Shown here one piece after another: positions 1-31,837 of a DNA stretch of 56,555 nucleotides. A program made the translations under genes and the position numbers. Under the pieces are notes generated by a model, which had not been told where the DNA came from, made no database searches, and was given only the letters and a program-made list of their open reading frames with translations. The DNA comes from Candidatus Moraniibacteriota bacterium (GTDB taxonomy: Bacteria; Patescibacteriota; Minisyncoccia; CAIUEV01; JAHKAQ01). Where the stretch lies: NCBI GenBank assembly GCA_014729725.1, contig WJJL01000045.1, forward strand, positions 1 through 56,555, in the 5' to 3' direction. The number at the start of each line of letters is the position of its first letter. Position 1 is the first letter of the stretch.

Positions 1-54
1 GCCGATGATCCGCAAGTTTTAGAATTAAAATTTTGGATATCGGCTGTTAAGTAA
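1..54 (+). CDS. 3' end of an unidentified gene (partial, enters from the left edge)
   Basis: Frame 1 is open from base 1 to TAA at 52-54 (...ADDPQVLELKFWISAVK*). Too short to name. Confidence 0.2.
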   Translation, partial: ADDPQVLELKFWISAVK

Positions 55-68
55 AGTATTTTTAAAAA

Positions 69-425
69 TCAACCTTTTATTTGATAAAATTCTATAACGT
101 TTCCTTCTGGATCTTCTGCCTGAAAAATTAAATAATTTTCAACTTTCTCTAAAGGCATGATAATTTTAGAATTTTTTTCTTTGATAATTTCAAGCATTCT
201 ATTGATATCTTCTACTTCAATGTTTGGGACTACATTATTTCCAATGGTTGTTTTTTCGTTATCAGCTGATGGATCAAATAACAGAAGTGAAATGTAATCA
301 AAGTCAAAAGAACTCATCCTTTTATCAAATGATGAAACCGGTGTGTCAAAAATATCTTCATAAAATTTTACTGCTCGCTTCATGTTTTTCACTGAAAGAT
401 AAATTGCTTTGATTTGAGGTTTCAT
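69..425 (-). CDS. VOC / glyoxalase-bleomycin resistance family protein
   Basis: 118 aa. N-terminus MKPQIKAIYLSVKNMKRAVKFYEDIF and C-terminal EDPEGNVIEF are typical of the glyoxalase/VOC fold. Confidence 0.7.
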   Translation of the reverse strand: MKPQIKAIYLSVKNMKRAVKFYEDIFDTPVSSFDKRMSSFDFDYISLLLFDPSADNEKTTIGNNVVPNIEVEDINRMLEIIKEKNSKIIMPLEKVENYLIFQAEDPEGNVIEFYQIKG

Positions 426-453
426 ATTATTAGATGATTTTTAAAAATATTTT

Positions 454-533
454 ATTTAACGTTTCTGTGTATCTGAAGTTTTTGTCTTTCTTCCTTATTG
501 TAATATAAAAGAAAGGAAAGGCAAAAATTTGGG
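454..533 (+). repeat. 5' half of structured palindromic unit 1: ATTTAAC-N14-GAAGTT-imperfect hairpin-AATTTGGG
   Basis: ATTTAAC at 454-460. CTGTGTATCTG at 465-475 is complementary to 1237-1247. GAAGTT at 475-480. Hairpin arms at about 479-496 and 508-527. AATTTGGG at 526-533. Unit 2 (1352-1519) has the same layout and the same 14-nt spacing. Confidence 0.7.
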
Positions 534-537
534 TGGA

Positions 538-594
538 GTAAAAGAGAAAATTTGAATATTTTTCCTTAATTTAAGCCCTTTTTCAATTTTAAAA
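538..594. repeat. Left arm of inverted repeat IR-a enclosing cassette 1
   Basis: GTAAAAGAGAAAATTTGAATATTT (538-561) is the perfect reverse complement of 1208-1231. GCCCTTTTTCAATTTT (575-590) is the perfect reverse complement of 1177-1192. The 13-15 nt between the two blocks has diverged. Confidence 0.85.
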
Positions 595-606
595 TTTGTT
601 TGTCGC

Positions 607-635
607 TTGACATATAGTAAGTTTTCTGCTATACT
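607..635 (+). promoter_or_regulatory. Consensus sigma70-type promoter of cassette 1 (TTGACA-17 nt-TATACT)
   Basis: TTGACA at 607-612, 17-nt spacer, TATACT at 630-635. The block TCTGCTATACTA is shared with the cassette 2 promoter. Confidence 0.6.
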
Positions 636-699
636 AATACGATACTAAGATAGTGTCAAAAGTATAGTACATTCACTTCAAAAATAGGAGGAAAACGAA

Positions 700-1119
700 A
701 TGGGAAAAGAGTATAACCTTCACTGGTACGGAGTGCTCACCATCGAAAACCTGCAACAAGTCGCAGACCTGCTCCTTCAGCTTCTTGACGGAAAACGCTA
801 CACTTTTGTGGCGGCAAACGAATTTTTTCGCTTCAAGCCAGAGGTCAGGACGGGTCAAACCCTCAGCCACAAGGGAGCCACGACGGGCAAGGCGATCAAC
901 GTCTATTATGATGAGAAAGAAAATCCGCCCAAGCACGCAGGTTTCAATGTTGGTGACACTTACGGAGTTTGGGGTTGCTCGACTAATCTGGCAACGGATG
1001 AATACGACAACGAATTTAACAACCCATACTTCGTTTTTGAGTACAACAAGGTTACGATCACTCACCGCGCGCCCGCTGGGCACTTGTTGTACTGGGTTGT
1101 TGCGATCGAACAAGATTAG
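700..1119 (+). CDS. Orphan 139-aa protein, no family recognised; roughly 50% G+C
   Basis: ATG is preceded by AGGAGG (686-691) at 8-nt spacing and followed by an intrinsic terminator. Composition is unlike every other gene in the window. I recognise no motif. Confidence 0.6.
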   Translation: MGKEYNLHWYGVLTIENLQQVADLLLQLLDGKRYTFVAANEFFRFKPEVRTGQTLSHKGATTGKAINVYYDEKENPPKHAGFNVGDTYGVWGCSTNLATDEYDNEFNNPYFVFEYNKVTITHRAPAGHLLYWVVAIEQD

Positions 1120-1134
1120 AGCAACCCCAAAGCT

Positions 1135-1176
1135 ACACCACCGTCATGTCTTCGGACCTCTGGCGGTGTTTTTTTA
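1135..1176 (+). terminator. Intrinsic terminator of cassette 1
   Basis: ACACCACCG...CGGCGGTGT stem with an inner GTC-TTCG-GAC hairpin, followed by a run of 7 T. Confidence 0.6.
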
Positions 1177-1231
1177 AAAATTGAAAAAGGGCTTATTAAA
1201 AATAAAGAAATATTCAAATTTTCTCTTTTAC
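1177..1231. repeat. Right arm of inverted repeat IR-a
   Basis: Reverse complement of 538-594 (16-nt and 24-nt perfect blocks). Confidence 0.85.
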
Positions 1232-1236
1232 GGAAC

Positions 1237-1254
1237 CAGATACACAGTGTTAAG
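1237..1254 (+). repeat. 3' closing arm of palindromic unit 1 (CAGATACACAG-T-GTTAAGT)
   Basis: CAGATACACAG (1237-1247) is complementary to 465-475. GTTAAGT fits GTTRRRY and opposes ATTTAAC (RYYYAAC) at 454-460. Confidence 0.65.
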
Positions 1255-1272
1255 TGAAGTTTTGCCGATTCA

Positions 1273-1301
1273 TAAAATTTACTTTTGAAATTACGAATCA
1301 A
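1273..1301 (-). promoter_or_regulatory. Weak relic of the host promoter-like element, pointing toward the VOC gene
   Basis: Minus strand reads TTGATT-cgtaatttcaaaagtaa-ATTTTA. It carries the AATTACGAA motif found in other host promoter elements. The -10 is poor. Confidence 0.25.
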
Positions 1302-1351
1302 CTTTTTTAATTGCACAAATATTTTCTTTTCTCGTTACAAGGCAAAATTTC

Positions 1352-1519
1352 ATTTAACGTATCCGAGTATGCGAAGTTCGCTTTTCGGATTTATCGATTA
1401 TTATTTGAATTATCTCATTACTATTTTAGCTGGTTTTTGCTTAAATTACCACTAAACAGAGAAAAGCGAATTTGGGAAAAAGGCGAGCCGAGCCTTTTTC
1501 CGCATACTCGGTGTTAGGC
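1352..1519 (+). repeat. Structured palindromic unit 2 (cargo-less copy), attC-like long imperfect hairpin
   Basis: Order of parts: ATTTAAC (1352-1358), N14 containing CCGAGTATGCG (1363-1373), GAAGTT (1373-1378), CGCTTTTC (1379-1386), long loop, GAAAAGCG (1461-1468), AATTTGGG (1469-1476), short hairpin AAAAAGGC-gagccga-GCCTTTTT (1477-1499), CGCATACTCGG (1501-1511), GTTAGGC (1513-1519). Confidence 0.75.
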
Positions 1520-1590
1520 GAGGGTGAGCGGAACGGAGTGGAGCGAAAGCGCAGCGCCCCCGTAGCGTTTTCTTTCAAATTATTTTTTGC
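1513..1590. repeat. Left arm of inverted repeat IR-b enclosing cassette 2, split by a 46-nt GC-rich insert
   Basis: GTTAGGCGA (1513-1521) and TTTTCTTTCAAATTATTTTTTGC (1568-1590) are perfect reverse complements of 2068-2076 and 2043-2065. In the right arm the two blocks are 2 nt apart. In the left arm they are separated by GGGTGAGCGGAACGGAGTGGAGCGAAAGCGCAGCGCCCCCGTAGCG. Confidence 0.85.
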
Positions 1591-1600
1591 GGTCGTGGGC

Positions 1601-1629
1601 TTGACAGATTAGCTGTTATCTGCTATACT
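1601..1629 (+). promoter_or_regulatory. Consensus sigma70-type promoter of cassette 2 (TTGACA-17 nt-TATACT)
   Basis: TTGACA at 1601-1606, 17-nt spacer, TATACT at 1624-1629. Confidence 0.6.
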
Positions 1630-1725
1630 AAACGTCAATAGTGAGAAATCTTTATTTAACCCAAAAAGGGTGGTTTCTCGCTATCGCGAGGATCTGCTCT
1701 TTACTAAACTCAAAGGAGGTAAAAA

Positions 1726-1971
1726 ATGGCACACAAAGAGTTGAAAGGTGATCGTTGTCCAAAGTGTAATGGCAGTGGAAGCGTGATTGCTGATGTTGGC
1801 GGATTTCATGCCGAAGTGGATTGCCCCGATTGTGCAGGTACCGGACTGGTAAACAGCCCAAACGCTTGCAAAAAGTGCAAAGGGTCTGGTAGCGTCATCG
1901 TTGATGCTGGTGGATTCAATGTCGAGGCAACCTGCGAACATTGCAATGGCTCCGGCTTGGAACCGCTTTAA
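1726..1971 (+). CDS. Stand-alone DnaJ-type cysteine-rich zinc-finger mini-protein (4 x CxxCxGxG), 81 aa
   Basis: Motifs CPKCNGSG, CPDCAGTG, CKKCKGSG, CEHCNGSG. Internal duplication of about 37 aa. GGAGG lies 6 nt before the ATG. A terminator follows. Roughly 50% G+C. Confidence 0.7.
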   Translation: MAHKELKGDRCPKCNGSGSVIADVGGFHAEVDCPDCAGTGLVNSPNACKKCKGSGSVIVDAGGFNVEATCEHCNGSGLEPL

Positions 1972-2001
1972 ACACCGCAAAAGCAGATCCGGTTCAATCG
2001 C

Positions 2002-2034
2002 AAGGCGTTGGCTTATATAGCTGACGCCTTTTTC
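2002..2034 (+). terminator. Intrinsic terminator of cassette 2
   Basis: AAGGCGTTGGC...GCTGACGCCTT stem followed by TTTTTC. Confidence 0.6.
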
Positions 2035-2042
2035 TTATATGA

Positions 2043-2076
2043 GCAAAAAATAATTTGAAAGAAAATGTCGCCTAAC
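2043..2076. repeat. Right arm of inverted repeat IR-b
   Basis: GCAAAAAATAATTTGAAAGAAAA-TG-TCGCCTAAC, reverse complement of the two blocks at 1568-1590 and 1513-1521. Confidence 0.85.
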
Positions 2077-2110
2077 TCCCTATATCCGAACCTCCAAATT
2101 TTTTATTATA

Positions 2111-2152
2111 ATTTAACAAAAAATTTAGAAGTTTTTTATACCCATAAGTATA
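2111..2152 (+). repeat. Degenerate or truncated third copy of the unit 5' half (ATTTAAC-N10-GAAGTT-hairpin)
   Basis: ATTTAAC at 2111-2117, GAAGTT at 2128-2133, small hairpin TATAC-ccataa-GTATA at 2137-2152. No closing arm is seen before the aspS stop. Confidence 0.4.
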
Positions 2153-2226
2153 GTATGTAGATAATTGTTTAGTCAATTAATTAGCCCTGGTTGTTTTTTA
2201 AAAAACAAACTTTTTTCAAACATCCG

Positions 2227-4101
2227 CTAAATTTCATCTTTCTTAACTTCTATCCTCAACTCATCCAAGACCTCTTTACTCACCTTTCTGGGAGCGCCTA
2301 ACATCAAATCCTGTCCTATGGCGGTTTTGGGGAAAGCCGTCATTTCGCGTACATTAGGTTCATCCCTAAGCAACATAAGCAACCTGTCTATTCCTTGACC
2401 TAAGCCGGCATGCGGAGGTGGACCGAATTTAAAAGCCTTCATTATGGGGCCAAAGTTTTTGTCAATTACTTTTTTGCTATAACCCACCGCTTCAAAAGAC
2501 TCGCTTAACATTTGTCCATCAGTACAACGCTCCCCTCCGGAAAACATCTCATAACCGTTGCAGGCAAGATCAAACTGTCTAGCCTTAATTTTTAAAAGCT
2601 CTTCAACTCCCTTTTTGCGAGCTTCTTTCAGCTGTTTTAAAGTACAGTCCGGGTTCGTAAAAGGATTATGACCGAACTGAACTCCGCTGCCTTTTTCCGA
2701 CATTCCATGAGCCCCCTCTTCCACTGGTTCAAAAAGAGGAAAATCATTAATCCAGCAAAAAGCCAAAATGTCAGGATCTCCCAATTTAAAACGCTCTTGA
2801 ATGTTTCTTCTGATAATATCCAAAATTTTAGCTGTTTCCGAGGGGTTGTCGGCGGCAAAAAAAATCGTGTCAAAAGGCTCCGGTTTTAAAGATCTTATAA
2901 ATGATAGATTCAAAAATTTGGCGATAGCTCCGCTAGCCTGACCTTTTTGATCGATTTTAATCCAGGCCAAACCAGGGGCGCCGGCGCCTTTAGCGATCTC
3001 GGTTAATTCATCGATATCTTTTCTCGAAAACTCCAAATCCCCTTTTCCGTAAACTTTTAAATTTAAATCTTTTGATTCAAAAGCTTTTTGTCTGGCTTTT
3101 GGAACTTTAAGCGCTCGAACATTTTGAGCTTGCTTGAAAATCTTAAAATCAGTTTTTTGAGCCTCCTTGGTAACATCCATTAATTCTAAAGCAAATCTCA
3201 AGTCCGGTTTTTCCGTGCCAAATCTTTCAATAGCTTCATTATAGGAAAATCTGGGCAACGGTTTTTGAAGTAATTTTTTACCTTCACCAAATTTGGTCAA
3301 AAATTGAGATAAAAAATCTTCGTACATTTGCCAAACATCCTCCTGTTTAACAAAAGCCATCTCTAAATCCAACTGATAATGCACATCTACATGACGATCA
3401 GCTCTGGAATCTTCGTCGCGAAAAGCCGGCGCAATCTGAAAATACTTATCCACACAGCTATACATTAAAAATTGCTTGAAAATCTGCGGTGATTGCGGTA
3501 AGGCGAAAAATTTCCCCGGCTCCCTCCTGGCCGGAACCAAGAAATCTCTAGCCCCCTCTGGAGCGGGCGCTGACAAAAGTGGGGTTTCTACTTCCAAAAA
3601 ATCTCTTTCACTGAACCAATTGCGAATAAACAAATTAACCGCTGCTCTAAATTTTAAATTTTCTTTCATCCTGTTTCTTCTAAGATCCAAATATCTATAT
3701 TCCAGCCTTAGCTCTTCGTTAACTGAAATCTTATCTTTGATTTCAAAAGGCGGCGTTTGAGACTTGCTCAAGATTACTAATTCATGCACCTCAATCTCGA
3801 TTTGACCGGTTTTAAGTTTAAGATTTTCCATTCCTTTTATCCTTTTTCTAACTAAACCTTTCACCTTTAAACACCACTCGGATCTAACTTGTTCTGCCTT
3901 TTGATGGGCCTGTTTATTAATTTTGGGATCAAACACAATTTGGGTAATTCCGTAAAAATCGCGTAAATCCACAAAAATCAAACCCCCATGGTCTCTTCTG
4001 GATTTCACCCAACCGGATAAAATTACCTCCTGACCGGTTTGATTTTCTTTTAATTCCCCACAAGAATTCGTTCTAAATTCATTTTTTGTTATTTTTGACA
4101 T
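2227..4101 (-). CDS. aspS: Aspartyl-tRNA synthetase (bacterial type with insertion domain)
   Basis: 624 aa. FFALPQSPQIFKQFLM and class II motif 3 GPPPHAGLGQGIDRLLMLL. Preceded by a T-box leader. Confidence 0.95.
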   Translation of the reverse strand: MSKITKNEFRTNSCGELKENQTGQEVILSGWVKSRRDHGGLIFVDLRDFYGITQIVFDPKINKQAHQKAEQVRSEWCLKVKGLVRKRIKGMENLKLKTGQIEIEVHELVILSKSQTPPFEIKDKISVNEELRLEYRYLDLRRNRMKENLKFRAAVNLFIRNWFSERDFLEVETPLLSAPAPEGARDFLVPARREPGKFFALPQSPQIFKQFLMYSCVDKYFQIAPAFRDEDSRADRHVDVHYQLDLEMAFVKQEDVWQMYEDFLSQFLTKFGEGKKLLQKPLPRFSYNEAIERFGTEKPDLRFALELMDVTKEAQKTDFKIFKQAQNVRALKVPKARQKAFESKDLNLKVYGKGDLEFSRKDIDELTEIAKGAGAPGLAWIKIDQKGQASGAIAKFLNLSFIRSLKPEPFDTIFFAADNPSETAKILDIIRRNIQERFKLGDPDILAFCWINDFPLFEPVEEGAHGMSEKGSGVQFGHNPFTNPDCTLKQLKEARKKGVEELLKIKARQFDLACNGYEMFSGGERCTDGQMLSESFEAVGYSKKVIDKNFGPIMKAFKFGPPPHAGLGQGIDRLLMLLRDEPNVREMTAFPKTAIGQDLMLGAPRKVSKEVLDELRIEVKKDEI

Positions 4102-28209: not shown

Positions 28210-28428
28210 GCAAAGAAAGCTTCAATTCTATAAATATATGAAAACCGCTTTGTTTGTTTTATGCCAAAAAAATGCTGGCAAATAAATTAATGACCGCAAC
28301 GCGGAAAATCTTTTAAAAAACGATCTTGAAAACTCTTGGAAATTATGCGCATAAATAAACCTTGCACTTATTGAGTTAGCGGGAAAAACTAAATTTTTGA
28401 ATTAAAAAAATCAAGCAGTTTGATTTTG

Positions 28429-28501
28429 AGCCAAGAATGGGAATCGAACCCATGACCTACGCGTTACGAATGCGTTGCTCTGCCGACTGAGCTACCTTGG
28501 C
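28429..28501 (-). tRNA. tRNA-Thr (anticodon CGU)
   Basis: Hand-folded cloverleaf: GCCAAGG acceptor, GCTCAGTCGGCAGAGC D arm, anticodon loop TT-CGT-AA, GGGTTCGATTCCC T arm. No encoded CCA. Confidence 0.85.
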
Positions 28502-31751: not shown

Positions 31752-31837
31752 TGGTGCCGCGGGGGAGACTCGAACTCCCATGGGAAAATCCCACCAGTTC
31801 CTAAGACTGGCGTGTCTACCAATTCCACCACCGCGGC
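31752..31837 (-). tRNA. tRNA-Leu (anticodon UAG), class II with long variable arm, CCA encoded
   Basis: GCCGCGG acceptor, anticodon stem-loop CCAGT-CT-TAG-GA-ACTGG, long variable arm, GGGAGTTCGAGTCTCCC T arm, ...GCACCA 3' end. Confidence 0.85.

What the first reader, a model, noticed from the sequence alone, without database searches (positions are those of the whole stretch)
1352..1519. 168-nt imperfect palindrome with attC-like R/L box layout and no cargo
Seen:
- ATTTAAC (RYYYAAC) at the 5' end and GTTAGGC (GTTRRRY) at the 3' end.
- Inner complementary boxes CCGAGTATGCG / CGCATACTCGG.
- A second complementary pair CGCTTTTC / GAAAAGCG around a loop of about 75 nt.
- An extra GC hairpin on the 3' side only, which makes the two strands fold asymmetrically.
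Established knowledge: attC sites are recognised as folded single strands with exactly this R''-L''...L'-R' architecture and strand asymmetry, though they are usually 57-141 nt long.
Inference: this may be the empty form of the carrier element that holds cassettes 1 and 2. Its 3' GTTAGGCGA also serves as the outer end of IR-b, so the units are chained head to tail as in a cassette array.
Basis: partly seen in the sequence, partly recalled or inferred. Interest (0 to 1): 0.7.

Follow-up and report, generated by a model that had tools for sequence, protein, structure and literature searches.

The report
Integron-like cassette site in CPR bacterium
The 168-nt palindrome is real and belongs to a family of folded, attC-like DNA sites that separate small mobile gene cassettes in an ultra-small (CPR) bacterium and in several phage-like contigs, but no integron integrase was found near any of them.

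Summary
All four described features are at the stated coordinates, and the element folds far better than shuffles (z about -5.6).

It is not a one-off. A covariance model built only from 35 related elements on other contigs finds window 1344-1527 as the single strong hit in 56.5 kb (55.9 bits, E 1.7e-11).

The family has:
- invariant AAC...GTT ends;
- an 11-bp stem whose sequence changes by compensatory Watson-Crick substitutions;
- a conserved AAGTT/AATTT(GGG) box with a G.T wobble;
- a variable two-hairpin tip.

The sites lie co-oriented in arrays between single small ORFs. The strand antisense to those ORFs folds better in 26 of 27 sites. Each cassette's start pairs with its own end rather than across the neighbouring site. 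These are the signatures of integron cassette arrays.

Points against simple membership:
- the geometry differs from a real attC (aadA2);
- there are no extrahelical bases;
- no IntI was found in the window, L036 or 20 kb of a phage-like contig.

The "empty carrier" idea is only partly right. The slot after AATTTGGG holds 6-51 nt in most sites and a 700-nt gene unit in the neighbouring site, but the finding is not that site's empty allele.

Verdict: a new variant of a known kind, and moderately interesting.

The parts
1..52 (+). Site M0. It is the 3' two-thirds of an attC-like site, cut by the contig start about 9 nt after the expected AACGT. Sequence: GCCGAT(G)ATCC, GC, AAGTT...AATTT, GGATATCGGC, T, GTTAAGT.
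   Evidence: Sequence. Model R2 matches 1-60 as a 5'-truncated hit, 19.7 bits, E 0.021. The window is the whole 56555-nt contig.
46..460 (-). Cassette body carrying a glyoxalase/bleomycin-resistance-family ORF (69-425, - strand). Its ends form a 26-bp inverted repeat, GTTAAGTAAAGTATTTTTAAAAATCA (46-71) against 435-460, which ends in ATTTAAC.
   Evidence: Pfam PF00903, E 5.5e-9. Inverted repeat I1 and arm comparison.
454..1255 (+). Site M1. In order: ATTTAAC (454-460), GTTT, 11-nt arm CTGTGTATCTG (465-475), AAGTT (476-480), hairpin 1, AATTT-GGG (526-533), a slot holding a gene unit (538-1231), GGAAC, arm CAGATACACAG (1237-1247), T, GTTAAGT (1249-1255).
   Evidence: (I2, I4). The block 457-1264 is 93.6% identical to L036 4702-5508, with different neighbours on both sides.
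538..1231 (+). Gene unit nested in the terminal structure of M1. It has a 24-nt perfect outer inverted repeat (538-561 / 1208-1231), an inner inverted repeat (572-594 / 1173-1195), a TTGACA-17-TATACT promoter (607-635), a 139-aa ORF of unknown function (700-1119) and a terminator-like hairpin.
   Evidence: no Pfam hit; 54 homologues; promoter, 11 of 12 matches. The same core unit sits in an ordinary inter-site segment in L031.
1249..1358 (+). ORF-less inter-site segment of 110 nt. Its ends form an 18-bp stem, GTTAAGTGAAGTTTTGCC / GGCAAAATTTCATTTAAC, with two G.T wobbles on the + strand.
   Evidence: (I7), and (longest ORF 20 aa).
1352..1519 (+). THE FINDING, site M2. In order: R core ATTTAAC (1352-1358), spacer GTAT (1359-1362), 11-nt arm (1363-1373), AAGTT (1374-1378) pairing with AATTT (1469-1473) with a G.T wobble, hairpin 1 stem CGCTTTTC / GAAAAGCG (1379-1386 / 1461-1468) with a 74-nt loop, GGG (1474-1476), hairpin 2 (1477-1499), C, 11-nt arm (1501-1511), T (1512), R core GTTAGGC (1513-1519).
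   Evidence: Model R2 gives 55.9 bits, E 1.7e-11, for 1344-1527.
1513..2076 (+). Inter-site segment carrying the zinc-finger gene unit. It has R arms GTTAGGCGA (1513-1521) and TCGCCTAAC (2068-2076), a GC-rich 46-nt bulge (1522-1567), a 23-nt perfect inverted repeat (1568-1590 / 2043-2065), a TTGACA-17-TATACT promoter (1601-1629), an 81-aa DnaJ-type CXXCXGXG ORF (1726-1971) and a terminator-like hairpin (2002-2030).
   Evidence: (I3, I8). A twin copy in L039 ends TCGCCTAAC GT..., so a further site follows there.
2077..2226 (.). Array boundary. There is no complete site after TCGCCTAAC. This is the junction with the 3' end of aspS (2227-4101, - strand). A sigma70-like match on the - strand (2176-2147) points into the array.
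   Evidence: The closest relative's aspS has no array downstream of it.

Best explanation
Window 1352-1519 is a single-strand-folding recombination site of the attC type. It is one of three in the first 2.1 kb of the contig, and these delimit mobile gene cassettes in an integron-like array that has no adjacent integrase (a CALIN-type array). The array lies downstream of aspS in a Moranbacteria-like CPR bacterium.

Proposed mechanism (inferred, not shown):
- The + strand is antisense to most cassette ORFs and folds into a rod.
- The rod consists of an R stem built on the invariant AAC/GTT, a 4-by-1 internal loop, an 11-bp stem, and a forked tip made of hairpin 1, closed by an AAGTT/AATTT box with a G.T wobble, and hairpin 2.
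- A structure-specific recombinase encoded elsewhere recognises this shape rather than the sequence. It is most likely a tyrosine recombinase of the IntI/Xer kind.
- It exchanges strands at the AAC/GTT core, so that cassettes are excised, inserted and reshuffled.

With the - strand as the cassette coding strand, the finding is the site belonging to the zinc-finger cassette (1358-2075). The forked tip tolerates very different contents, up to a whole promoter-gene-terminator unit in the neighbouring site M1.
For: Shown here:
1. The element is real and strongly structured.
2. It belongs to a family.
   - Model R2 was built from 35 sites on other contigs. It scores the finding at 55.9 bits, E 1.7e-11, as the only strong hit in the window.
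   - Model R1 gave 40 hits, all in array-bearing loci and none in 14 control loci.
3. Structure is conserved but sequence is not.
   - AAC/GTT is invariant.
   - The 11-bp stem is 97-99% paired, and 8-10 of its 11 pairs show changes on both sides. No shuffle of 500 reached the observed covariation.
4. The context is a cassette array.
   - Sites are co-oriented.
   - Segments of 110-1866 nt lie between them, mostly with one small ORF.
   - 14 of 15 such ORFs lie on the strand opposite the site orientation, often with a ribosome-binding site and ATG right after the R arm.
5. The strand antisense to the ORFs folds better in 26 of 27 sites (p 9e-6). It carries the conserved G.T wobble in 17 of 19 sites. 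Integron bottom strands behave this way.
6. There is a chimeric-site signature. Variable R-arm positions 6-9 pair between the start and end of a cassette (0.76), not across the site (0.47; random pairing 0.53; p 3e-5).
7. There is evidence of mobility.
   - The same site block (93.6% identical) has different neighbours in the window and in L036, with breakpoints at TAAC and GTTA.
   - The 139-aa gene sits in three different contexts.
   - The array is absent downstream of aspS in the closest genome.
8. The cargo is typical of integron cassettes, for example a glyoxalase/bleomycin-resistance family protein and methyltransferases.

From the literature:
- CALINs with functional attC sites occur in virulent phages (PMC9892861).
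- Many integron-type recombinases in metagenomes lack detectable attC sites, possibly because their attC sites are novel (PMC13323075).
Against: - No integron integrase was found.
  - 30 window ORFs have no recombinase domain.
  - phmmer with IntI1 and XerD finds nothing in the window, L036, L053, L054, L059, L060, L063 (20 kb), L089 or L091.
  - The one Xer-like integrase, in L092, lies 3 kb from the sites and scores 21.9 bits against a cutoff of 265 for TIGR02249.
- An integrase should sit on the same side of every array. Whichever side that is, either the window array (aspS side) or the L036 array (aroA side) lacks one there.
- The geometry differs from a real attC read here (aadA2).
  - aadA2 has spacers of 5 and 6 nt and two extra bases in L''.
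  - The family has spacers of 1 and 4 nt (ORF-sense strand), a perfect 11-bp stem and no extrahelical bases.
- The family model gives the true attC only 5.8 bits, matching just the AAC...GTT ends.
- The shared M1 block differs from its neighbours on both sides. A single integron-type crossover does not explain that.
- Two of the window's three cassette genes carry their own promoters and lie antisense to the other cassette ORFs.
- The IntegronFinder and HattCI models could not be run.
Confidence: 0.6

Rival explanations
1. The sites are foldback or MITE-like non-autonomous elements. They would be mobilised as hairpins by a single-strand transposase such as an HUH/Y1 enzyme of the IS200/IS605 kind, insert at AAC|GTT-type targets, and build arrays by repeated insertion.
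For: - The M1 block (TAAC...GTTA) and the duplicated site in L060 are shared as units, and both flanks differ.
- Sites and segments are each bounded by their own inverted repeats.
- A TnpB (OrfB_IS605) gene lies 3 kb from the sites in L060.
- No integrase is nearby.
Against: - No target-site duplications were seen.
- The stems covary instead of being copies by descent.
- Orientation is fixed relative to neighbouring ORFs in 14 of 15 cases.
- R arms pair across the gene segment, not across the inserted element. Simple insertion does not predict this.
- No Y1/HUH transposase gene was seen in any locus.
Confidence: 0.13
2. The hairpins act at the RNA or transcription level. They would be insulators, processing or stabilising elements, or weak terminators between small genes, like REP/BIME elements or the promoter-stem-loop repeats of T4-type phages. 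Shuffling would then occur by homologous recombination between repeats.
For: - The sites are intergenic and lie after ORFs.
- The RNA fold is strong (z -6.47).
- The regions resemble phage accessory regions packed with small genes.
- attC sites are themselves thought to be weak terminators (PMC9892861).
Against: - The better-folding strand, which carries the conserved G.T wobble, is antisense to 14 of 15 ORFs.
- No U tract follows the stems.
- There is no Rfam match.
- Stem changes are almost all Watson-Crick to Watson-Crick. That fits a DNA-level constraint.
- Stem sequences differ too much between sites for homologous recombination, yet breakpoints fall exactly at the AAC/GTT cores.
Confidence: 0.1
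3. The junctions are duplex Xer/dif-like sites with one conserved arm (ATTTCnnnTAAC) and one variable arm. They alternate in inverted orientation, as in the pdif modules of Acinetobacter plasmids, and are used by the host XerC/D.
For: - The R arm contains GTTAAAT/ATTTAAC, as in XerD-binding arms (own knowledge).
- Consecutive junctions are inverted, and every segment is bounded by inverted repeats.
- Housekeeping Xer recombinases would explain why no dedicated integrase is nearby.
Against: - The 'variable arm' covaries precisely with its partner 45-790 nt away. That is a hairpin signature and has no role in a duplex site.
- All sites in an array have the same polarity.
- The two arms are not inverted repeats of each other.
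Confidence: 0.07
4. It is a chance palindrome or an assembly artefact at a contig end.
For: - The region lies in the first 2.1 kb of the contig.
- The contig starts inside a repeat.
Against: - The fold z-score is about -5.6.
- The independent family model gives E 1.7e-11.
- Near-identical blocks occur in independent assemblies from ENA, JGI and Logan.
Confidence: 0.01

Closest known systems
Integron attC sites in arrays lacking an integrase (CALINs), including those reported in virulent phages (Cury et al. 2016, PMC4889954; Qi et al. 2023, PMC9892861)
   Same: - Imperfect palindromes with conserved 5'-AAC...GTT-3' ends.
- Structure conserved while sequence is not.
- A variable terminal structure.
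- Co-oriented sites after single small ORFs.
- The better-folding strand is antisense to the ORFs.
- R arms are chimeric across a site but complementary between the start and end of a cassette.
- ORF-less cassettes occur.
- The sites occur in both chromosomes and phage genomes.
- No neighbouring intI.
   Different: - The R stem is usually 9 bp and up to 26 bp, against 7 bp, with conserved unpaired positions 10-11.
- Spacers are 1 and 4 nt. The real aadA2 attC has 5 and 6 nt.
- The stem is a perfect 11 bp with no extrahelical bases.
- There is a conserved AAGTT/AATTT(GGG) box with a G.T wobble.
- A whole gene unit can lie inside the terminal structure.
- The family model does not recognise attC_aadA2.
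- The host lineage is CPR.
Long, species-specific attC repeats of sedentary chromosomal integrons, such as Vibrio cholerae repeats (own knowledge; branched terminal structures were described by Bouvier et al. 2009)
   Same: - Long sites, over 120 nt, with branched terminal structures.
- High similarity among sites within a lineage.
- The same site type next to many unrelated genes.
- Assemblies break at the repeats.
   Different: - Those arrays have an intI and an attI at one end.
- Their stems carry extrahelical bases.
- They do not share the AAGTT/AATTTGGG motifs.
pdif modules (gene modules flanked by inverted XerC/D sites on Acinetobacter plasmids; own knowledge)
   Same: - Every gene segment is bounded by inverted copies of a recombination-site arm.
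- There is no dedicated recombinase next to the modules.
   Different: - pdif sites are 28-bp duplex sites with two conserved arms.
- Here one 'arm' covaries with a distant partner, so a hairpin forms.
- All sites here share one polarity.
REP/BIME and other intergenic palindromic repeats, and MITE or foldback elements
   Same: - Repeated intergenic palindromes.
- Individual blocks are found in new contexts.
   Different: - The stems covary.
- Orientation relative to ORFs is fixed.
- Cassette ends are complementary to each other.
- There are no target-site duplications.
- No RAYT or Y1 transposase gene was seen.

Membership tests
Integron attC site | Conserved 5'-RYYYAAC (R'') and GTTRRRY-3' (R') boxes with invariant AAC/GTT triplets | tested here: met
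   The finding has ATTTAAC and GTTAGGC. AAC/GTT is invariant in 8 of 8 and 19 of 19 aligned sites. Across the family the outer positions are often ACAAC/GTTGT, which departs from RYYY/RRRY at one or two positions.
Integron attC site | Second pair of inverted repeats (L''/L'), conserved in structure but not in sequence | tested here: met
   The 11-bp stem is 97-99% paired. 8-10 of its 11 pairs change on both sides. No shuffle of 500 was as high.
Integron attC site | Extrahelical bases in the L box of the folded bottom strand | tested here: not met
   The real attC_aadA2 has two extra bases in L''. The finding and nearly all family members have a perfect 11-bp stem. Only M0 has one bulged G.
Integron attC site | Unpaired central spacer of about 5 and 6 nt between the R and L boxes | tested here: not met
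   aadA2 has AATTC and TCCGGC. The family has 4 nt (GTxT) against 1 nt (T). The canonical spacing is approached only if the first 4 bp of the 11-bp stem are counted as a paired spacer, giving 5 and 8 nt. That mapping is an inference.
Integron attC site | Variable terminal structure; overall length about 57-141 nt | tested here: met
   Core spans are 45-169 nt in 27 sites. The finding is 160 nt from AAC to GTT. Two outliers of 793-794 nt carry a gene.
Integron attC site | The bottom strand, antisense to the cassette ORFs, is the better-folding and recombinogenic strand | tested here: inconclusive
   Folding and orientation agree with the rule. The antisense strand is more stable in 26 of 27 sites, and 14 of 15 ORFs lie on the other strand. 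Recombination itself was not tested.
Integron attC site | Score above threshold with the IntegronFinder attC covariance model or HattCI | not testable with these tools
   The model is not in Rfam and its seed alignment is not held. The reciprocal test gave 5.8 bits, E 1.6, for the family model R1 on the true attC_aadA2.
Integron attC site | Recombined by an integron integrase (attC x attI or attC x attC) | not testable with these tools
   This needs an experiment.
Integron (complete) | intI gene with its extra domain, an attI site and a Pc promoter adjacent to the array | tested here: not met
   No tyrosine recombinase was found in the window, L036, L063 or most phage loci. The array start abuts the 3' end of aspS. 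A - strand promoter-like match at 2176-2147 is only a consensus match.
CALIN (cluster of attC sites lacking an integrase) | At least two co-oriented attC sites spaced by cassette-sized segments, with no intI nearby | tested here: met
   The window has M0, M1 and M2, all on the + strand within 1.5 kb. L036 has 4 sites and L063 at least 11. This holds only if the sites are accepted as attC.
Cassette array (integron type) | The start of a cassette is complementary to the R'' of its own site, so sites in the array are chimeric | tested here: met
   Within a segment, arm positions 6-9 pair at 0.76. Across a site they pair at 0.47, and random pairing gives 0.53 (p 3e-5). In the window, GTTAGGCGA pairs with TCGCCTAAC, and the other segments have 18-bp and 26-bp stems.
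MITE / foldback transposon | Target-site duplication, and copies related by descent with conserved terminal repeats | tested here: not met
   No duplications flank the sites. The stems differ by compensatory changes.
Known structured RNA (Rfam 15) | Match to a curated covariance model | tested here: not met
   There was no match at E up to 1 in window 1-2400. L031, L036 and L039 gave only chance microRNA hits.

The most novel reading that the evidence does not exclude
The sites belong to a distinct hairpin-cassette system that does not depend on IntI. It would be shared by CPR bacteria and phage-like elements. In it, a recombinase encoded in trans reads a pseudo-symmetric rod: two AAGTT/AATTT G.T boxes flank an 11-bp stem beside the AAC/GTT core. 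The recombinase can exchange at either core triplet. This would let site blocks move independently of both neighbours and would let whole genes travel inside the site's terminal loop.
Probability: 0.2. Interest if true: 0.85.

Novelty: new variant of a known kind. Interest (0 to 1): 0.58.

Why it matters
CPR/Patescibacteria have tiny genomes, and little is known about how they gain genes. In the paper library searched here I found no description of integron-type arrays in them.

A family of attC-like sites is shared between a CPR chromosome and phage-like contigs. One stem-plus-box sequence, GCGGATATGAGAAGTTG, occurs in both L036 and the phage-like contigs L054 and L059. This would point to a cassette-exchange route between these bacteria and mobile elements.

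The sites may escape standard attC models. If so, they would be a concrete example of the "novel attC sites" invoked to explain integron-type recombinases that lack detectable arrays (PMC13323075).

A site whose terminal loop carries a complete gene also shows how much such structure-specific sites can tolerate.

Tried and rejected
1. A metagenome scan with ATTTAACGT-N13-AAGTT-N15-45-TGTTARG returned 17 loci. None had complementary arms and several lay in coding sequence, so all were treated as chance.
2. The genome scan with AspRS gave the taxonomy and showed that the relative has no array, but it found no further arrays.
3. Exact look-ups of the glyoxalase and zinc-finger proteins found nothing on record.
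4. Homologues of the 139-aa protein (P0006, P0017, P0003, P0009, P0015) sit in ordinary operons or next to an IS element, without sites.
5. Rfam gave nothing.
6. BLAST of a phage-type site against 50,697 GenBank phages gave no match.
7. The search for an 'empty' M1 with CTGTGTATCTGAAGTT in viral contigs gave 25 chance hits. The exact 5' half of the finding gave 0 hits.
8. It matched only the 5' half, at 11.8 bits. This was solved by rebuilding the model from 35 sites that include long ones.
9. The supplementary attC seed alignment of IntegronFinder is not held.
10. I first took the + strand to be the attC top strand. ORF orientation, folding asymmetry and the incomplete site at the aspS boundary argue for the opposite assignment.
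11. I first thought the ORF-less segments next to M1 in the window and in L036 were homologous. Their interiors are no more alike than shuffles.
Full report
**1. Observation**

- ATTTAAC lies at 1352-1358 and GTTAGGC at 1513-1519.
- The perfect 11-nt complement CCGAGTATGCG / CGCATACTCGG lies at 1363-1373 and 1501-1511.
- CGCTTTTC / GAAAAGCG lie at 1379-1386 and 1461-1468, around a 74-nt loop.
- A GC hairpin lies at 1477-1499, on the 3' side only.

As single-stranded DNA the + strand folds to -33.2 kcal/mol (z -5.64) and the - strand to -30.8 kcal/mol (z -5.45). No shuffle of 200 folded as well.

**2. Surroundings in the window**

The window is a whole 56,555-nt contig. Its AspRS is 70% identical to that of a Candidatus Moraniibacteriota MAG, and the next-best hits are about 41% identical. 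In that relative, other genes follow aspS directly and there is no array.

The first 2.1 kb of the window hold three sites of one design, all on the + strand.
- M0 (1-52) is cut by the contig start.
- M1 spans 454-1255.
- M2, the finding, spans 1352-1519.

Each site reads AAC, then GT(A/T)T, then an 11-nt arm, then AAGTT, hairpin 1, AATTT-GGG, a variable slot, the complementary 11-nt arm, T, and GTT.

Three segments lie between and after the sites, and the two ends of each pair with each other.
- 46-460 carries a glyoxalase/bleomycin-resistance-family ORF on the - strand. Its end stem is 26 bp.
- 1249-1358 has no ORF. Its end stem is 18 bp.
- 1513-2076 carries a DnaJ-type zinc-finger ORF with its own promoter. 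Its end stem is 9 bp, followed by a 23-bp inner repeat.

In M1 the slot after AATTTGGG holds a 694-nt unit (538-1231). It has perfect 24-nt terminal repeats, a TTGACA-17-TATACT promoter, a 139-aa ORF of unknown function and a terminator-like hairpin. No complete site follows TCGCCTAAC at 2076, and aspS starts at 2227.

**3. Relatives elsewhere**

Contigs carrying homologues of the 139-aa protein gave three further arrays.
- L031/L032 has the gene in an ordinary inter-site segment, between two sites of the same design as the finding.
- L036/L037/L038 has four sites. One is a 93.6%-identical copy of M1 with the gene inside it.
- L039 is a twin of the zinc-finger unit. It is followed by TCGCCTAAC GT..., the beginning of a further site.

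A pattern scan of IMG/VR (AACGTNT-N11-AAGTT-N5-35-AATTTGGG), followed by a second scan, found true sites on six phage-like contigs.
- These are held as loci L051/L059/L063/L090 (one 39-kb contig with at least 11 sites), L053, L054, L060, L089, L091 and L092.
- They encode a phage replisome organiser, DnaB, a DnaC-like loader, a 5'-3' exonuclease, HU, methyltransferases and a PD-(D/E)XK nuclease.

In total 29 sites met a strict structural definition. Of these, 27 begin AACGT, 19 have AAGTT and 14 have AATTTGGG.

**4. Is the finding a member of this family?**

A covariance model (R2) was built from 35 sites, none from the window. It scores window 1344-1527 at 55.9 bits, E 1.7e-11, across the whole model with every pair standard. 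This is the only strong hit in 56.5 kb. M0 is found as a truncated hit at E 0.021.

All were in array-bearing loci, and none were in 14 control loci.

The strict scan gave zero-mismatch hits only in arrays. Shuffles gave only two-mismatch hits.

**5. What is conserved**

- AAC and GTT never vary.
- The 11-bp stem is 97-99% paired. 8 of its 11 pairs (8 sites) and 10 of 11 (19 sites) show changes on both sides, nearly always Watson-Crick to Watson-Crick. No shuffle of 500 reached the observed covariation, and sliding the partner columns by 1-3 drops pairing to 31-50%.
- AAGTT pairs with AATTT at the base of hairpin 1, with a G.T wobble in 17 of 19 sites.
- The R arms carry a related motif, ATTTC...GAAGT. 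Positions 10-11 of the R stem are seldom Watson-Crick paired.

I selected the sites partly by their complementarity, so the paired percentage is biased upward. The register relative to the invariant motifs and the model-based recovery of untrained sites are independent of that choice.

**6. Signatures of a cassette array**

- Sites are co-oriented within every array.
- Segments between consecutive sites are 110-1866 nt long. In 14 of 15 cases with an ORF of at least 40 aa, the ORF is on the strand opposite the site orientation.
- In L059 each ORF has its ribosome-binding site and ATG just inside one R arm and ends at the next site.
- The site-orientation strand is therefore antisense to the ORFs. 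It folds better than its complement in 26 of 27 sites (mean -22.0 against -19.1 kcal/mol, Wilcoxon p 9e-6). Folding on the strand antisense to the ORFs is the integron 'bottom strand' rule.
- At the variable arm positions 6-9, the start of a segment pairs with the end of the same segment (0.76). It does not pair with the arm across the adjacent site (0.47; random 0.53; p 3e-5). Arrays built by exchange at the conserved core should show this pattern. It matches the chimeric attC sites described for integrons (PMC4889954).

On this reading the - strand is the cassette coding strand.
- The array starts at 2076 next to aspS, where no full site is needed.
- The finding is the site of the zinc-finger cassette (1358-2075).
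- In L036 the distal end of the array ends in a complete site, next to aroA.

**7. Mobility**

The M1 block (window 457-1264) is 93.6% identical to L036 4702-5508. Third-codon-position differences in its gene are 21 of 140.

To its left the two contigs carry unrelated genes. To its right the ORF-less segments are no more alike than shuffles (interior identity 0.55 against 0.55). The breakpoints therefore coincide with TAAC and GTTA on the two sides.

L060 has two copies of one site next to different sequences.

The 139-aa gene core (window 562-1206) occurs inside a site (window, L036), in an inter-site segment (L031), and without repeats (L034).

One integron-type crossover does not explain a block that differs from both neighbours. 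That would need two exchanges or activity on either strand, and it remains unexplained.

**8. Comparison with a real attC**

My recalled IntI1 sequence matched plasmid intI1 genes at 100%. I then read the aadA2 cassette of plasmid pFBAOT6.

Its top strand reads GTCTAAC, AATTC, GTTCAAGCCGAC, a loop, GCGGCTTAAC, TCCGGC, GTTAGAT. This gives spacers of 5 and 6 nt and two extra bases in L''.

On the ORF-sense strand the present family has R'', 1 nt, an 11-nt arm, the tip, the other 11-nt arm, 4 nt, then R'. There are no extra bases in the stem.

The longer spacer lies on the same arm as in aadA2. The spacing approaches the canonical one only if four stem pairs are counted as a paired spacer, which is an inference.

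The family model R1 gives the true attC 5.8 bits and matches only the AAC...GTT ends.

The IntegronFinder model is not available here, so formal membership is untested.

**9. Recombinase**

- None of 30 window ORFs has a recombinase domain.
- phmmer with IntI1 and XerD against all ORFs of at least 100-120 aa in the window and the array loci found nothing. The only exceptions were a control XerD in L010 and one Xer-like phage integrase in L092 (717-1865, - strand). That integrase lies 3 kb from the sites and scores 21.9 bits against a TIGR02249 cutoff of 265.
- The 9 kb upstream of the array in the 39-kb phage-like contig encode replication and modification genes only.

The arrays are therefore CALIN-like. 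The enzyme is unknown and is inferred to act in trans.

**10. The 'empty carrier' idea**

The slot between AATTTGGG and the 3' arm holds 6-51 nt in 14 sites, often as a small GC hairpin with a GAGCCGA-like loop. It holds 24 nt in the finding and 702-703 nt in M1 and its twin. Hairpin 1 ranges from 9 to 100 nt and is 90 nt in the finding.

The finding is thus a normal long-form member of the family. The terminal structure can host a gene. However, the finding has a different stem from M1 and is not M1's empty allele, and no empty M1 was found.

**11. Rival explanations**

- A foldback or single-strand transposon model fits the two-ended block sharing. It does not fit the covarying stems, the fixed polarity or the arm-pairing pattern, and no duplications or transposase were seen.
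- An RNA-level role is disfavoured. The better-folding strand with the G.T wobble is antisense to the ORFs, no U tracts follow the stems, and Rfam has no match.
- A duplex Xer/dif-like reading cannot explain covariation between arms 45-790 nt apart.
- Chance and assembly artefact are excluded.

**12. Verdict**

The best-supported reading is an attC-type, structure-specific recombination site in an integrase-less cassette array of a CPR bacterium. It belongs to a family that also occurs in phage-like contigs (confidence about 0.6).

It works like an attC in every feature that could be tested by sequence. It fails two defining structural features, the extrahelical bases and the 5/6-nt unpaired spacer, and it has no integrase partner. 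I therefore file it as a new variant of a known kind, not as a proven attC.

In the paper library I found no description of such arrays in CPR bacteria. CALINs in virulent phages are already known (PMC9892861).

Noticed in passing
window 700-1119 (+); homologues P0002-P0054: The 139-aa protein has no Pfam domain. It has 54 homologues, nearly all on short metagenome contigs and probably from CPR-like organisms. It often carries its own strong promoter and terminator. It occurs in several contexts: inside a site, in a cassette segment, in two-gene operons, and next to an IS-type transposase (L045). Its function is unknown.
   Followed up: partly
window 1522-1567; L031 180-460; L036 3660-3700, 3885-3940, 4575-4610: GC-rich stretches and hairpin loops of the type GAGCG / GAGCCGA / GTAGCGGAGCGGA recur at cassette starts, in hairpin 2 of the sites and in ORF-less spacers. 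The surrounding genome is about 31% GC. In L036/L037 two cassettes also share a hairpin with the loop GAGGGGTTAGGGGTGAA.
   Followed up: no
window 2147-2176 (- strand): A sigma70-like match (TTGACT, 18 nt, TATACT; 10 of 12) lies between aspS and the first cassette and points into the array. A cassette promoter would be expected in this position, but this is only a consensus match in AT-rich DNA.
   Followed up: no
window 607-635 and 1601-1629 (+): The two self-expressed gene units share a near-identical promoter, GCTTGACA-17-TGCTATACTAA (11 of 12, with an extended -10 TG). The coding sequences behind it are unrelated. Both units lie antisense to the other cassette ORFs.
   Followed up: partly
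L060 4458-5717 (+): A TnpB (OrfB_IS605 / Cas12f-like) gene lies about 3 kb from two identical sites in an 86-kb phage-like contig. No TnpA was seen.
   Followed up: no
L092 717-1865 (-): A Xer-like tyrosine recombinase lies at the end of the replication module of a phage-like contig that carries at least five sites. It is far below the integron-integrase model cutoff. This is the only recombinase seen near any array.
   Followed up: partly
L036 3805-3815; L054 1847-1857; L059 8617-8627: The same 11-nt stem plus box, GCGGATATGAG-AAGTTG, occurs in the CPR-type array L036 and in two different phage-like contigs. Either the site type is shared between host and phage, or there is a preferred stem consensus (GCGGxTATxxG).
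   Followed up: partly
L039 1-17: The Logan contig starts with ATGTGTATAAGAGACAG, a Nextera transposase adapter remnant, so its left end is not genomic.
   Followed up: no
L023 56-177, 1896-2743, 3695-4657: A contig fetched only by chance (Ga0123355) holds several long perfect palindromes, up to nested arms about 850-960 nt apart. They are unrelated to this family.
   Followed up: no
window 28428-28501 and 31752-31837 (-): These are tRNA-Thr(CGT) and tRNA-Leu(TAG) genes. The rest of the contig is ordinary housekeeping and cell-envelope genes, including DnaB, pyruvate kinase, MiaA, TatD, LytB, FolD and glycosyltransferases.
   Followed up: no
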